From a virus (Duplodnaviria; Heunggongvirae; Uroviricota; Caudoviricetes): 5,164 nucleotides of DNA. The notes below the pieces were generated by a model. The model was given only the letters and a program-made list of their open reading frames with translations, was not told where the DNA came from and did no database searches. The stretch is from the IMG/VR virus record IMGVR_UViG_2548876946_000006, positions 1 through 5,164 of that record, one strand, 5' to 3'. A program made the translations under genes and the position numbers. Position 1 is the first letter of the stretch; the number at the start of each line of letters is the position of its first letter. Shown here piece after piece: positions 1-4,877 of the stretch.

Positions 1-63
1 GCAGCCTGAGTTCACAGATAAAACACTCTCCAGGAAAACCGGGGCGGTTCAGTGCAGTAAGTA

Positions 64-666
64 ATGAGCTATTTTCTGCGCAAAAAATGGATGGTAAATT
101 TGTCCGGGTCAGGAAAAATTTTATGGGCGCTAAACATGAAAAAAGATTCGTATCCTTATTTGATTTGCATGACAGTTTCAGGGCTGATCTTTATTTTCCT
201 TTTCTTCTGGTGGCGGGCAGATATCTACAGGGTCACGTTTCTTAATCAGAGTATATCCCACTATTACATTCTGTTTAGCATGGGAATAGCTTTTCTGTTA
301 TCTCTGTTTTGGGTTAAGAAGGGGATAGTAAAACAAAGAGGCTGGAAGAGTCTGTCAGCATACCTTAAGGTTTATGCAGGGATGTGCATATTTGCTGGAT
401 TTTTTCTGATTATACCCCTTACGACACTAACTTATTTTTTGCCTGGAGAGACATCGTCTTATGTTGCACCGTATCGGTATACTTCCGGTAGTTCAAAAAG
501 TTGTTCTGGAGCTGAGGTGGATGACCCCGAACTACATGAGAATATTCGCATTTGCTATCCGTATGGCAATTATGAGTACGATAATATTATCTATGTTGAA
601 AAGAAAATTAATATATTAGGTGCGGTAGTGACATATGCACAGACCGCGCGTGATGATACTGAATGA
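64..666 (+). CDS. Hypothetical membrane protein, 200 aa, with three hydrophobic helices and a C-terminal soluble domain of about 80 aa; AT-rich accessory (moron-like) gene convergent to the phage operon
   Basis: Longest plus-strand ORF in the window. Hydrophobic segments YLICMTVSGLIFIFLFFWW, YYILFSMGIAFLLSLFWV and GMCIFAGFFLIIPLTTLTYFL. Visibly lower GC than the Red genes. First in-frame ATG follows a TAA at 58-60; no clear Shine-Dalgarno, so the exact start is uncertain. A hairpin follows at 701-724. Confidence 0.55.
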   Translation: MSYFLRKKWMVNLSGSGKILWALNMKKDSYPYLICMTVSGLIFIFLFFWWRADIYRVTFLNQSISHYYILFSMGIAFLLSLFWVKKGIVKQRGWKSLSAYLKVYAGMCIFAGFFLIIPLTTLTYFLPGETSSYVAPYRYTSGSSKSCSGAEVDDPELHENIRICYPYGNYEYDNIIYVEKKINILGAVVTYAQTARDDTE

Positions 667-700: not shown

Positions 701-724
701 TCGAGGTAATATAATTTACCTCGA
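701..724. terminator. Candidate bidirectional intrinsic terminator between convergent genes
   Basis: Perfect 9-bp inverted repeat TCGAGGTAA (701-709) / TTACCTCGA (716-724) with a 6-nt loop TATAAT. Flanked by CTCGTTTGTTCT on the plus strand and an A/T-rich tract on the other side. Lies between the stop of the plus-strand gene (666) and the stop of the minus-strand TraR-like gene (877). Confidence 0.4.
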
Positions 725-876
725 CTCGTTTGTTCTGGTATTAATATTTCGCTTTACGACCGATTTTTATCTGATGATATCATGCGGTTTTCATATACTG
801 ACTTACTGTCTTTTCTCCGTTAGCGATTTTCTCCTGCTCAGCGATGATTTTATCTTTGGCTTCTAGTTAATTTCGC

Positions 877-1419: not shown

Positions 1420-2172
1420 TCACACTTCGAATGCCAGTTGAGGGGTAAAGACGTCCCGTTCAGCGTTGTAATTAAGTGAACTGGCACTGTTGAATGATTC
1501 AATGCGTTCCACAAGAACTTGCGTACGGGTTTCTTTACTTGCGGGAGCATATGGCGAACCTACCCAGGATTTGTCGATGCCTATATTTCTTGCGACGTTC
1601 GTGCTGTCTGCAGACGAAAGCGGTACATGAGTAAAAATGTCTTTATTTAACATCCGTAACCCATGAATCTTGGTGATTGGGTAGCCGTACTGATCTACAA
1701 CATGACGTATAAGATCGCGTAGTTTAGCCCGACACGCTCTCGGTCGTTTTGCATCGTATTCCCCCATCGAGCCGATGCAGACGCGGGGAAACTCATGGCA
1801 CAGACGAATAAATCGCTCATCTGGTTCGTTCATGTGCCACACCGGAGCACCAATAAATTTACCGTGAGGCCATGCCGCAATCAGGGCGTCATTCTCTTCA
1901 CTGGTTCCGCCGATAACATCCGGGATAACCGCGAATGAGAAACGAGGGTGATTACCCCAGCGTTCAACAAATCTGTAATATTCATTCCAGTCTACGGCCT
2001 TGTTTTTTGTCCAGAATGTGAATGCACCATTATCAAGAGCAAATGATTGGGTGACTTCGGAAGCCAGATCAATCTGAGCTGGATTAGCAAAACTGATGAA
2101 TGCGTGTCTGCCTTTCCAGGCTTTCAACGCACAGGTATCGGGAGTTATTGGACCACCGTGAAAATGAATCAT
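1420..2172 (-). CDS. 250-aa protein, candidate TGT-like (tRNA-guanine transglycosylase fold, DpdA-like) transglycosylase; function inferred from motifs only
   Basis: Strong Shine-Dalgarno GGGAGAG 6 nt upstream of the ATG at 2170-2172. The start overlaps the TGA of the preceding small ORF (ATGA). Motifs appear in the same N-to-C order as in E. coli Tgt: LDNGAF (D47) vs TDSGGF, VIPDVIGG (D85) vs IFDEC/IIQG, CIGSMGE vs AVGGLAVGE, KIHGLRML vs RYLMGVG, SADSTNVARNIG (D189) vs FDCVMPTRNARNG. The protein is about 125 aa shorter than Tgt and has no CxCxxC...H zinc subdomain. The gene call is solid; the functional call is tentative. Confidence 0.8.
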   Translation of the reverse strand: MIHFHGGPITPDTCALKAWKGRHAFISFANPAQIDLASEVTQSFALDNGAFTFWTKNKAVDWNEYYRFVERWGNHPRFSFAVIPDVIGGTSEENDALIAAWPHGKFIGAPVWHMNEPDERFIRLCHEFPRVCIGSMGEYDAKRPRACRAKLRDLIRHVVDQYGYPITKIHGLRMLNKDIFTHVPLSSADSTNVARNIGIDKSWVGSPYAPASKETRTQVLVERIESFNSASSLNYNAERDVFTPQLAFEV

Positions 2173-4511: not shown

Positions 4512-4877
4512 TTAGGCGGCTGATGTTTCTTCTTTCAGGCTTTCGAGATATTTACGTGGGTCGTCGTAACATTGGCATTCGCTGTACCAATCCACCCAGC
4601 GATCAGTAAGCCCCATCTCTGATAAATCTTCATCGGTAAGGCTCTCATCCCACATCTCAAGGCCGTTAGCATTGCAGTAATCAGGCTTGATGTTGTTGTC
4701 ATACTGAAAGGCGTCATAATCAGCCAGTGCGTCCATCAGACGAACACCCTCTTCAACACTTGCCACTTCTACAATGAACGGCTTCATAGGTACTTGCGGG
4801 ATATGCCAGACACGTAATTTCATATATCCTCCGTCAAAAAAATTGCCCTCACACTGGAGGGCAAAGAAGATTTCCAA
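4512..4877 (-). CDS. ea10: Ea10 (Ssb-like single-stranded DNA-binding early protein); maximal ORF 121 aa, with the likely translated start at the internal ATG at 4823 (103 aa)
   Basis: Translation ...MKLRVWHIPQVPMKPFIVEVASVEEGVRLMDALADYDAFQYDNNIKPDYCNANGLEMWDE...KEETSAA matches lambda Ea10. The internal ATG at 4821-4823 is preceded by GGAGGATAT. The 18 upstream codons of the maximal ORF contain the terminator hairpin at 4843-4864. Confidence 0.85.
   Translation of the reverse strand: MEIFFALQCEGNFFDGGYMKLRVWHIPQVPMKPFIVEVASVEEGVRLMDALADYDAFQYDNNIKPDYCNANGLEMWDESLTDEDLSEMGLTDRWVDWYSECQCYDDPRKYLESLKEETSAA
4836..4864 (-). terminator. Strong candidate intrinsic terminator (minus strand) immediately upstream of the ea10 ribosome-binding site (tL2-cluster-like)
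   Basis: Minus-strand RNA UUGCCCUC-CAGUGU-GAGGGCAA (perfect 8-bp stem, 6-nt loop) followed by UUUUUUU. This is a textbook rho-independent terminator that would be read through under N-type antitermination. Confidence 0.55.

What the first reader, a model, noticed from the sequence alone, without database searches (positions are those of the whole stretch)
64..666. AT-rich, convergently transcribed membrane-protein gene at the edge of the early operon: candidate lysogenic-conversion or exclusion moron
This is the only substantial plus-strand gene, opposite in direction to the whole phage operon. It is markedly more AT-rich than the Red genes, encodes three hydrophobic helices plus a soluble C-terminal domain with several Cys/Tyr residues, and is followed by a hairpin terminator shared with the converging phage operon. 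Genes with this organisation in prophages are often expressed from the lysogen and mediate superinfection exclusion, abortive infection or other host-fitness functions (lambda rexB and sieB are precedents). No family is recognised.
Basis: partly seen in the sequence, partly recalled or inferred. Interest (0 to 1): 0.55.

Follow-up and report, generated by a model that had tools for sequence, protein, structure and literature searches.

The report
Prophage moron encoding periplasm-facing membrane protein
This is a real, self-contained accessory gene for a small inner-membrane protein that has moved between two unrelated kinds of E. coli prophage and sits in a known anti-phage hotspot in one of them, so it is a good but untested candidate for blocking infection by other phages.

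Summary
A plus-strand gene lies at 64-666. It has 39% GC against 52-53% for exo and bet, three hydrophobic helices, a soluble C-terminal domain and a hairpin at 701-724.

The true start is almost certainly ATG136, giving 176 aa. All distant homologues start there. A conserved extended -10 promoter (TGGTAAATT, 92-100) lies inside the annotated N-terminal extension. Window 1-51 is the end of an IS629-type element, so the promoter is inside the window, not upstream of it.

The gene is under purifying selection (dN/dS about 0.1). It is intact in 87 of 90 fetched copies and present in 907 of 5426 complete E. coli genomes.

Homologues occupy the gpQ-gpA (old/tin) defence hotspot of P2-like prophages. 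Rousset et al. 2022 list one as untested "System #4, 3 TM, 470 occurrences". The lambdoid copy carries a relic of P2 cos-flanking DNA upstream, which shows direct exchange between the two phage types.

Predicted topology is N-in, with a disulfide-bearing five-strand beta domain in the periplasm. No Pfam, NCBIfam, PADLOC, SieA, gp15 or MliC relationship was found.

Best reading: a prophage-expressed envelope-level exclusion protein. The function is inferred, not shown.

The parts
1..51 (+). Right end of an IS629/IS3-family insertion sequence. Its transposase lies upstream of the window on the same strand. This is not part of the native cassette.
   Evidence: Window 1-55 matches IS629/IS3 transposase ends in many Stx phages. 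The source genome NZ_CP148579 annotates an IS3-family transposase that ends just before the gene. Homology to 434 and mEp332 starts at window 52.
52..57 (+). GTGCAG, the remainder of the last TTGTGCA repeat of a relic of P2-like cos-flanking backbone. GTGC (52-55) is the 4-bp target-site duplication of the IS.
   Evidence: The left junction reads ...ATTATTGTGC|TGAACC and the right junction ...GGTTCA|GTGCAG. The repeats are P2-like backbone, found next to unrelated cargo in other P2-like phages.
64..135 (+). Annotated N-terminal extension of the 200-aa ORF. It is probably not translated and holds the promoter and 5' UTR.
   Evidence: It is not conserved in homologues. L085 is frameshifted here while the downstream ORF stays intact.
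72..77 (+). Weak -35-like hexamer TTTTCT, 17 bp upstream of the -10 hexamer (inferred).
   Evidence: Read from the sequence. The TTTTCT stretch is conserved in 434 and in the P2-like copies L014, L004 and L005.
92..100 (+). Extended -10 promoter element TGGTAAATT (TGnTAAATT).
   Evidence: It is the only match in the window. TGnTAAnTT is invariant in six diverged upstream regions whose mean column identity is 42%. It lies at -44 to -48 from the ATG in lambdoid, P2-like, Citrobacter and Cedecea copies. It is identical in 65 of 65 undisturbed lambdoid copies.
136..666 (+). Coding sequence of the 176-aa membrane protein, stop codon included.
   Evidence: M25 is invariant across 23 homologues. dN/dS is 0.08-0.17 against P2-like copies. 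The ORF is intact in 87 of 90 fetched loci.
148..438 (+). Three transmembrane helices (aa 5-29, 38-61 and 70-101 of the 176-aa protein). Short periplasmic loop 1 carries the conserved IYRxTFL. Loop 2 is basic and cytoplasmic.
   Evidence: AlphaFold2 secondary structure. Hydropathy and charge: loop 2 has +6 net charge and the C-domain -6.
448..648 (+). C-terminal five-strand beta domain, predicted periplasmic. It holds the invariant Cys codons at 502-504 and 553-555 and the SCSGAxV loop.
701..734 (+). Intrinsic-terminator-like hairpin (701-724) with a T-rich tail (725-734) for the + strand gene.
   Evidence: Scan hit on the + strand only. The hairpin folds at -13.8 kcal/mol, z -3.4 when the - strand is folded. 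It is partly conserved in the P2-like copy L014.
820..876 (-). Remnant homologous to the 3' end of an ead/Ea22-like gene. That gene is the convergent neighbour of the P2-like copy, so this is the right edge of the shared block.
   Evidence: DNA alignment with L014. L014 has a minus-strand ORF reading LLDWLETKDNRIAELEKIA. RefSeq annotates this neighbour as an ead/Ea22-like family protein.

Best explanation
The locus is a single-gene moron.

Anatomy (shown or strongly supported):
- A weak -35 plus an extended -10 promoter at 72-100 is predicted to drive a short leader.
- A 176-aa ORF follows at 136-666, then a terminator-like hairpin at 701-734.
- The product has three transmembrane helices.
- Its conserved part faces outward: loop 1 plus a 75-residue five-strand beta barrel with two invariant Cys.
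- The cassette has been exchanged directly between the gpQ-gpA (old/tin) hotspot of P2-like prophages and the xis-exo region of lambdoid prophages.

Topology (inferred): the positive-inside rule places the N-terminus and the basic loop 2 in the cytoplasm and the beta domain in the periplasm, where the two Cys are probably disulfide-bonded.

Expression and function (inferred):
- In lambdoid phages the gene lies antisense to the repressed pL operon. It would therefore be made in the lysogen and damped by converging pL transcription after induction.
- Most likely it is a superinfection-exclusion type protein. Its periplasmic domain would act at the outer face of the inner membrane and interfere with cell-envelope penetration or genome delivery by incoming phages. 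P22 SieA, HK97 gp15 and T4 Imm/Sp work in this way.

This copy: IS629 has inserted 41 bp upstream of the extended -10 element. The core promoter and the ORF are intact.
For: Real gene:
- dN/dS is 0.08-0.17.
- The ORF is intact in 87 of 90 loci.
- It is present in 907 of 5426 complete E. coli genomes.

Start and promoter.

Moron features:
- GC is 39% against 52-53% for the Red genes.
- A + strand terminator-like hairpin follows the gene.
- The gene is in 434, mEp332 and 2B8, but 933W-type phages share only about 67 nt of the left flank with the 434 locus.

Hotspot location:
- Homologues of 58-78% identity lie between portal gpQ and gpA in P2-like prophages of E. coli and Salmonella, convergent with gpA.
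- Rousset et al. 2022 (PMC9122126) identify that locus as the old/tin defence hotspot.
- They list a 51%-identical member as System #4, 3 TM, 470 occurrences.

Direct exchange:
- About 170 nt upstream in 434-type phages is P2 cos-flank backbone with the cos core deleted.
- An Ea22-like remnant is shared downstream.

Architecture:
- AlphaFold2 gives pLDDT 87 for the whole protein and 90.6 for the domain.
- The charge distribution fits an N-in, C-out topology.
- Conservation is highest in the C-domain: 68% mean column identity against 55% overall.
- There is no cytoplasmic domain that could sense infection from inside the cell.

Precedent: P22 SieA is a 162-164 aa inner-membrane protein with three predicted transmembrane segments. 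It is expressed from the prophage and blocks DNA injection (PMC10883804).
Against: - No transcription, localisation or phenotype data exist for any family member. None was found in the literature searches.
- The family member in the P2 hotspot was not among the systems Rousset et al. tested.
- There is no sequence or profile similarity to SieA, gp15, RexB or SieB, or to any PADLOC model.
- More distant members (36-55% identity) sit in ordinary chromosomal contexts in Enterobacter, Klebsiella and Cedecea, and homologous sequences occur on Pantoea and Serratia plasmids. The ancestral role may therefore be a host envelope function.
- The Shine-Dalgarno sequence of the lambdoid allele is poor.
- Promoter, terminator and topology are predictions.
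- Location in a hotspot does not prove defence. Rousset et al. detected activity for three of the eight additional P2-hotspot systems they cloned.
Confidence: 0.4

Rival explanations
1. It is an envelope-protection or lysogenic-conversion factor unrelated to phage entry. The membrane-tethered periplasmic domain would bind or inhibit an extracellular or periplasm-acting threat. Candidates are lysozyme or another peptidoglycan hydrolase, a T6SS or CDI muramidase effector, or a colicin. It would then act as an orphan immunity or inhibitor protein that raises host fitness.
For: - Chromosomal, non-prophage members occur in Enterobacter, Klebsiella, Pseudescherichia and Cedecea, and homologous sequences occur on Pantoea and Serratia plasmids.
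- The invariant loop S-C-S-G-A-x-V resembles the SxSGAxY loop that MliC/PliC, PliI and PliG inhibitors insert into lysozyme active sites (PMC5507604).
- Two invariant Cys fit a disulfide-stabilised periplasmic binding domain.
Against: - hhalign against E. coli MliC, a three-sequence MliC/PliC profile and PliG gives probabilities of 0.04-0.33%.
- Distant family members keep only C-x-G of the motif.
- The second MliC motif, YxxxTKG, is absent.
Confidence: 0.25
2. It is an abortive-infection membrane effector of the RexB type. It would depolarise or permeabilise the inner membrane when infection is sensed, killing the cell before phage progeny are released.
For: - Small multi-pass membrane proteins are common effectors in defence systems, and the P2 and P4 hotspots contain several (PMC9122126).
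- IS elements have hit the regulatory region in 3 of 69 lambdoid copies. This could reflect a cost or toxicity of expression.
Against: - The gene occurs alone or with varying neighbours. In L005, L014 and L017 it has none of the small upstream ORFs seen in L004 and L015.
- It has essentially no cytoplasmic portion that could receive a signal.
- The best-conserved part is periplasmic.
- No Pfam match was reported, so none to the RexB or SieB families.
Confidence: 0.15
3. It serves the phage's own lytic cycle, for example as a lysis regulator or an aid to DNA injection or release, and is not a lysogen-expressed gene.
For: It is carried by functional phages (434, mEp332, 2B8) and lies within the delayed-early region.
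Against: - It is antisense to pL transcription and has its own promoter-like element.
- It is absent from many close relatives, so it is dispensable.
- It lies in the accessory hotspot of P2-like phages, and related genes lie in non-phage chromosomal sites.
Confidence: 0.07
4. It is a decaying or non-functional ORF that hitchhikes on prophages.
For: - Three of 90 fetched copies are truncated.
- A 112-aa N-terminally truncated form is common.
- IS elements are inserted upstream in three copies.
Against: - dN/dS is about 0.1 over saturated synonymous divergence.
- Architecture and invariant residues are conserved across genera.
- The promoter element is conserved.
Confidence: 0.03

Closest known systems
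'System #4' (single protein, 3 TM, no Pfam) of the P2-like gpQ-gpA hotspot, Table S5B of Rousset et al. 2022 (PMC9122126)
   Same: It is a homologous protein: 51% identity over 168 aa, E 7e-56. It has the same length, three transmembrane helices and the same CSGA...ICYP C-domain. Closer relatives (58-78% identity) occupy the same hotspot.
   Different: The window copy sits in a lambdoid prophage between xis and exo, not in a P2-like phage. System #4 is only catalogued (470 occurrences). It is not among the cloned and tested systems, so it brings no known function.
P22 SieA superinfection-exclusion protein (PMC10883804)
   Same: SieA is a prophage-expressed single-gene module with its own promoter. 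It is a 162-164 aa inner-membrane protein with three predicted transmembrane segments, and it acts at the DNA-delivery step.
   Different: There is no detectable homology: hhalign probability 0.2%. SieA's conserved motif FxRYPxEAxxFNK is cytoplasmic and is absent here. SieA has no C-terminal beta domain, whereas this family's conserved part is a predicted periplasmic beta barrel.
HK97 gp15 moron (superinfection exclusion; Cumby et al. 2012, cited from my own knowledge and via PMC10883804)
   Same: It is a moron with its own terminator inside a phage operon. It encodes a predicted inner-membrane protein that blocks genome entry.
   Different: gp15 is 62 aa and is unrelated in sequence: hhalign probability 0.9%. 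It lies among the tail genes on the same strand.
Lambda RexB and SieB
   Same: They are lysogen-expressed membrane proteins of lambdoid prophages that interfere with other phages.
   Different: The Pfam scan reported no match to the RexB or SieB families. RexB works with the cytoplasmic sensor RexA as an abortive-infection ion channel. This gene has no constant partner and no cytoplasmic domain.
MliC/PliC, PliI and PliG periplasmic lysozyme inhibitors (PMC5507604)
   Same: They are envelope-anchored small beta-barrel proteins with a disulfide. They carry an SxSGAxY loop at a strand boundary; here the loop is S-C-S-G-A-x-V.
   Different: They form an eight-strand barrel against five strands here. 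They lack profile similarity to this family and do not appear among its listed fold-search hits. The motif is lost in distant family members. They are lipoprotein or soluble proteins, not three-helix membrane-anchored ones.

Membership tests
Moron (autonomous accessory transcription unit in a prophage, sensu Hendrix/Juhala) | Own promoter and terminator flanking the gene | tested here: inconclusive
   A conserved extended -10 element lies at 92-100. A terminator-like hairpin lies at 701-734. Both are sequence predictions. No transcript data exist.
Moron (autonomous accessory transcription unit in a prophage, sensu Hendrix/Juhala) | Base composition differs from the neighbouring genes, and the gene is present or absent among related phages | tested here: met
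   GC is 39% against 47-53% for the neighbouring genes. The gene is in 434, mEp332 and 2B8. 933W-type phages share only about 67 nt of the left flank with the 434 locus.
P2-hotspot 'System #4' 3-TM protein family (Rousset et al. 2022, Table S5B) | Sequence homology over the full length and three transmembrane helices | tested here: met
   BLASTP gives 51% identity and E 7e-56. The profile search returns only proteins of the same architecture.
P2-hotspot 'System #4' 3-TM protein family (Rousset et al. 2022, Table S5B) | Location between gpQ and gpA of a P2-like prophage | tested here: not met
   The window copy is in a lambdoid prophage next to TraR-like, exo, bet and gam genes. It does retain a relic of the P2 cos flank upstream in the native arrangement.
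Validated anti-phage defence systems (PADLOC-DB v2) | Match to a model of a known or candidate defence protein | tested here: not met
   No PADLOC family matched at E <= 1.
P22 SieA family | Sequence or profile homology, including the cytoplasmic motif FxRYPxEAxxFNK | tested here: not met
   hhalign probability is 0.2%. The motif (PMC10883804) is absent from the sequence read.
P22 SieA family | Blocks DNA injection of specific phages when expressed alone | not testable with these tools
   This needs plating, potassium-efflux and DNA-entry assays.
HK97 gp15 | Sequence homology | tested here: not met
   hhalign probability is 0.9%.
Lambda RexB / SieB | Match to the Pfam families for these proteins | tested here: not met
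   The Pfam scan at E <= 1 returned only a sub-threshold DUF6057 hit.
MliC/PliC lysozyme inhibitors | Motifs SxSGAxY and YxxxTKG, an eight-strand beta barrel and profile similarity | tested here: not met
   The first motif is only approximated (SCSGAxV). The second is absent. The model has five strands. hhalign probability is 0.25-0.33%. No such protein appears among the listed fold-search hits.
PHROG 1416 (phage protein family of unknown function) | Profile match | tested here: met
   E is 1.2e-50, covering aa 113-200 of the 200-aa ORF, which is the third helix plus the C-domain.

The most novel reading that the evidence does not exclude
The family is a new class of superinfection-exclusion protein. 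Its disulfide-locked periplasmic S-C-S-G-A loop would plug the active site of peptidoglycan hydrolases carried on incoming phage tails or ejection proteins. This would work like T4 Spackle but with a different fold. It would explain why the cassette is traded between P2-like and lambdoid prophages and why relatives are fixed in some Enterobacter chromosomes.
Probability: 0.1. Interest if true: 0.7.

Novelty: new member of a known kind. Interest (0 to 1): 0.45.

Why it matters
About one in six complete E. coli genomes carries this cassette. A related allele is the fourth most frequent occupant of the P2 defence hotspot. Yet no member has ever been tested.

If it excludes phages, it would add a compact, single-gene, envelope-level defence that is shared by two major prophage families. 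It would also affect phage-therapy host range in pathogenic E. coli, including the O104:H4 lineage.

The P2 cos-flank relic upstream of the lambdoid copy is a rare direct footprint of cargo moving between a P2-type hotspot and a lambda-type early region.

The work also corrects annotation:
- The protein is 176 aa, not 200 aa.
- The 56-aa upstream 'membrane protein' annotated in phage 434 is probably not a gene.
- The 'CII site' annotated there is probably not a real site.

Tried and rejected
Searches that found nothing useful:
- Pfam, NCBIfam and PADLOC scans gave no family.
- A PDB sequence profile search gave nothing.
- Foldseek against viral and PDB libraries had no hit at E < 0.01.
- The afdb50 library was unavailable.
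- The HMMER scan of 1.84 billion representative proteins found only 61 hits with the same architecture. One 3074-aa hit (P0125) has only sub-threshold Pfam matches, and I dismissed it as compositional.
- Literature searches for phage 434 exclusion, lambdoid hotspots, accession numbers and locus tags found no study of this gene.

Ideas rejected:
- The svsR small RNA of prophage NC-SV was checked. It is unrelated and lies at cI.
- I first took the TTGTGCA direct repeats for an operator or activator site of the cassette, or the CII site annotated in 434. They are P2-like backbone next to cos, whatever the cargo.
- I considered the 56-aa upstream ORF of 434 and mEp332 as a partner gene. It lies in that non-coding relic, starts inside the tL4 hairpin and is not annotated by PGAP.
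- Homology to SieA, gp15, MliC and PliG was tested and rejected.

Not obtainable:
- The genomic context of the 112-aa truncated form could not be retrieved.
Full report
**What is in the window.**
The window is the early-left region of a lambdoid prophage. On the minus strand it carries, in order:
- a TraR/DksA zinc-finger gene (877-1098);
- two small or unknown ORFs;
- DUF1317, exo, bet, gam, kil and cIII;
- a P22 gp17-family gene.

The finding's ORF exists as described (64-666, + strand, 200 aa). Its GC content is 39.0%, against 53.0% for exo and 52.4% for bet. It has three hydrophobic segments and an acidic, Cys- and Tyr-containing C-terminal part. A hairpin follows at 701-724.

**What lies upstream.**
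Window 1-51 is the terminal inverted repeat of an IS629/IS3-family element. Its transposase is on the same strand, just outside the window. Homology to phages 434, mEp332 and 2B8 begins at window 52. Comparing both junctions with mEp332 shows a simple insertion with a 4-bp target duplication, GTGC, and no loss of prophage DNA. Only this one genome of 5426 matched the whole query in a single aligned piece.

In the undisturbed arrangement the gene is not at the edge of the operon. It lies inside the pL operon, between the TraR-like gene and orf55-xis-int, and antisense to it.

**The real gene is 136-666 (176 aa).**
Four lines of evidence agree.
- All 19 aligned homologues of 43-78% identity, from Salmonella, Klebsiella, Enterobacter, Cedecea and others, begin at M25 or give way to unrelated sequence upstream of it. 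M25 is an invariant column.
- ATG64 is missing from the P2-like copy L014. In L005 it is followed directly by a stop.
- An element TGnTAAnTT lies 44-48 nt upstream of the M25 codon. It fits an extended -10 promoter. It is invariant in six upstream regions that otherwise share only 42% of columns. It is present in lambdoid, P2-like, Citrobacter and Cedecea copies and identical in 65 of 65 undisturbed lambdoid copies. In the window it is TGGTAAATT at 92-100, the only match in the window. That places it inside the annotated N-terminal extension.
- One copy (L085) has a 1-nt deletion within 64-135. This breaks the 200-aa frame but leaves the 176-aa ORF intact.

The phage 434 annotators chose a third start, TTG at window 100, which shows how uncertain the start has been. 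The Shine-Dalgarno sequence of the lambdoid allele is weak. Other alleles have AGGG, GAGG or AAGGAGG.

**It is a functional protein-coding gene.**
Nei-Gojobori dN/dS against the P2-like alleles is 0.08-0.17, with synonymous sites near saturation. Of 90 fetched loci, 87 have an intact ORF. Within the lambdoid clade, 15 of 26 polymorphic sites in the coding sequence fall at third codon positions. The DNA is present in 907 of 5426 complete E. coli genomes, including O104:H4, 55989 and E24377A.

**Protein architecture.**
AlphaFold2, run with a 20-sequence alignment, gives mean pLDDT 87. It predicts helices at residues 5-29, 38-61 and 70-101, a short strand in loop 1, and a five-strand beta domain at 105-171. 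The domain alone gives pLDDT 90.6.

Loop 2 carries six Lys/Arg and no acidic residue. The C-terminal part has a net charge of -6. By the positive-inside rule, the N-terminus and loop 2 are cytoplasmic, while loop 1 and the C-domain are periplasmic. This topology is an inference.

The C-domain is the best-conserved part, with 68% mean column identity against 55% overall. Its invariant residues include two Cys, at codons 502-504 and 553-555. They flank one beta hairpin, which is compatible with a disulfide.

Fold searches give no functional lead.
- Foldseek against viral and PDB libraries has no hit at E < 0.01.
- The profile HMM finds only 61 cluster representatives among 1.84 billion proteins. 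The full-length ones are about 165-200 aa with the same layout.
- The species-representative genomes that were hit are Enterobacteriaceae. tblastn also finds homologous sequences on Pantoea and Serratia plasmids.

**Where else the gene lives.**
This is the key contextual result. Alleles of 58-78% identity lie in P2-like prophages of E. coli and Salmonella. There they sit between the portal gene Q and the replication gene A, oriented convergently with A. Rousset et al. 2022 (PMC9122126) define exactly this cos-proximal gpA-gpQ interval as a hotspot of anti-phage systems, and it holds old and tin in P2 itself.

Their Table S5B lists as System #4 a single protein with no Pfam domain, 3 TM and 470 occurrences. 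Its sequence is 51% identical to the window protein (E 7e-56). It does not appear in their tables of cloned and tested systems, and PADLOC has no model for it. So the family is catalogued but uncharacterised.

In several P2-like loci it is the only gene in the hotspot, or it has different small neighbours. This argues for a single-gene module.

More distant members (36-55% identity) are ordinary chromosomal genes in Enterobacter, Klebsiella, Pseudescherichia, Citrobacter and Cedecea. In several Enterobacter genomes the gene directly follows a LysR-type regulator gene.

**A footprint of transfer between phage types.**
Upstream of the gene, 434-type phages carry degenerate TTGTGCA direct repeats with a 10-bp period. 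I first suspected an operator. A pattern scan of viral contigs then showed the triplet, together with about 40 nt upstream of it, in many P2-like phages with unrelated cargo. The sequences diverge immediately after the third repeat.

Alignment shows that about 170 nt upstream of the gene in 434 is homologous to P2-like backbone on both sides of cos, with about 84 nt deleted in between. From similarity to the P2 and P4 cos sequences, I take the deleted stretch to hold the cos core. The lambdoid cassette was therefore captured from a P2-type hotspot together with its backbone flank.

Two consequences follow.
- The 56-aa 'putative membrane protein' annotated in 434 and mEp332 lies wholly within this relic, and its ATG sits in the tL4 hairpin. 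PGAP does not call it. It is probably not a gene.
- The 'CII binding site' annotated in 434 is the repeat relic.

Downstream, window 820-876 is homologous to the 3' end of an ead/Ea22-like gene. That gene is the convergent neighbour of the E. coli P2-like allele. Ea22 is a lambdoid gene, so exchange has probably gone in both directions.

In the window, IS629 is inserted inside the last repeat, 41 bp upstream of the extended -10 element. The core promoter and the ORF are intact.

**Terminator.**
The hairpin at 701-724 scores as terminator-like on the + strand only. The - strand forms the same stem (-13.8 kcal/mol, z -3.4), but AUAAAUUAAC follows it rather than a U-run. The stem is partly conserved in L014. 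A terminator for the moron is plausible. A bidirectional terminator shared with pL is not supported. In the native phage, pL transcription has to continue past this point to reach xis and int.

**Mechanism.**
Shown or strongly supported:
- It is a conserved, selected, autonomous single-gene cassette.
- It encodes a small three-helix membrane protein whose conserved part is a beta domain.
- It is mobile between the accessory loci of two unrelated temperate phage families, one of which is an established defence hotspot.

Inferred:
- The gene is expressed in the lysogen. It lies antisense to the repressed pL operon and has a promoter form that can work with a poor -35 hexamer.
- The beta domain faces the periplasm.
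- Function follows from these. The protein has almost no cytoplasmic mass, so it cannot sense intracellular infection through a domain of its own. Its conserved surface lies at the outer face of the inner membrane. That is where P22 SieA, HK97 gp15, T4 Imm/Sp and the Gram-positive Sie/Ltp proteins block genome delivery (PMC10883804).

I therefore rank an entry-level superinfection-exclusion function first, at about 0.4.

The rivals rank as follows.
- A non-phage envelope-protection role comes second, at about 0.25. The chromosomal members support it. So does the S-C-S-G-A-x-V loop, which recalls the SxSGAxY active-site-plugging loop of MliC/PliC, PliI and PliG lysozyme inhibitors (PMC5507604). 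That resemblance failed every test I could run. hhalign probabilities against MliC, a MliC/PliC profile and PliG are 0.04-0.33%. The fold differs. Distant members keep only C-x-G of the motif. It stays a lead only.
- An abortive-infection effector is possible, at about 0.15, but no sensor partner is evident.
- A lytic-cycle role (about 0.07) or decay (about 0.03) is unlikely.

**Comparison with known systems.**
By organisation and predicted action the protein most resembles P22 SieA, which is 162-164 aa with three predicted transmembrane segments, has its own promoter and is prophage-expressed. It is not a SieA family member. There is no profile similarity, SieA's cytoplasmic motif is absent, and the conserved domain lies on the opposite side of the membrane. 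It is also unrelated to HK97 gp15, and the Pfam scan reported no match to the RexB or SieB families. It is a member of PHROG 1416 (function unknown) and of the uncharacterised 'System #4' family of the P2 hotspot.

**Verdict.**
The moron interpretation is well supported. The exclusion function is plausible but untested.

It is a new member of a known kind: a prophage moron encoding a small inner-membrane protein that is a candidate for superinfection exclusion. It is not a new kind of system.

Interest is moderate (0.45). The gene is abundant and untested, sits in a validated hotspot and would be easy to assay. The P2-to-lambda transfer footprint is a neat evolutionary detail. No surprising mechanism has been demonstrated.

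Noticed in passing
window 1-55 (and L013 about 4741-6051): An IS629/IS3-family element is inserted with a 4-bp target duplication (GTGC), 41 bp upstream of the gene's extended -10 element and in the same orientation as the gene. Only one of 5426 complete E. coli genomes matched the whole query in a single piece. Read-through from the transposase gene could alter expression.
   Followed up: partly
L068 and L071 (IMG/VR lambdoid copies), 11 nt upstream of the ATG equivalent to window 136: IS10 ends are inserted at the same site between the promoter and the start codon, the inside end in one contig and the outside end in the other. With the IS629 case, 3 of 69 lambdoid copies have an IS in the regulatory region. 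This could reflect selection to silence or to rewire expression, or simply an IS10 target hotspot (CGCTAAACA).
   Followed up: partly
L001 3839-4009 (phage 434 CPT_434_35) and L001 3989-4002: The 56-aa 'putative membrane protein' and the 'CII binding site' annotated in 434 lie in a relic of P2-like cos-flanking non-coding DNA. They are probably annotation artefacts.
   Followed up: yes
P2-like loci L113-L189 (for example L141 1901-1935), adjacent to cos: Three TTGTGCA direct repeats with a 10-bp period, preceded by an A-tract, are conserved next to cos in many P2-like phages whatever cargo follows. They mark the left boundary of the hotspot. Their function is unknown to me; terminase or host-factor binding is possible.
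   Followed up: partly
window 820-876 (- strand): This remnant of the 3' end of an ead/Ea22-like gene is in frame directly after the stop codon of the TraR-like gene. It is shared with the P2-like locus L014 (6622-6774), where the Ea22-like gene itself appears frameshifted.
   Followed up: partly
window 1420-2172 (- strand): This 250-aa ORF lies between DUF1317/exo and the TraR-like gene. It has no Pfam family and replaces the orf63/orf60a-type genes found at this position in 434. Its function is unknown.
   Followed up: no
window 4512-4823 (- strand): This gene matches Pfam PF17420 (P22 gp17, 'superinfection exclusion gene product 17', E 7e-56). It occupies the position where 434 has ea10.
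   Followed up: no
proteins P0131 and P0133 (112 aa), E. coli: An N-terminally truncated form holds only the third helix and the C-domain. It is recorded on at least 1000 contigs. PHROG 1416 (a 90-position profile) likewise covers only this part. It could be a common pseudogene remnant or a functional single-anchor variant. Its context could not be retrieved.
   Followed up: partly
L021 (JARKOR010000073.1): A 3.5-kb contig binned as 'Candidatus Nanosynbacter' encodes a protein 99% identical to the window's. It is almost certainly mis-binned E. coli prophage DNA.
   Followed up: no
L023-L026, L030, L031 and L007-L009 (Enterobacter spp.): Chromosomal family members share a different conserved upstream sequence (CGTCAGTCGGCAGCCAC...). 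In several of these genomes the gene starts 17 nt after a LysR-type regulator gene, which suggests co-transcription and a host-regulated role in that genus.
   Followed up: no
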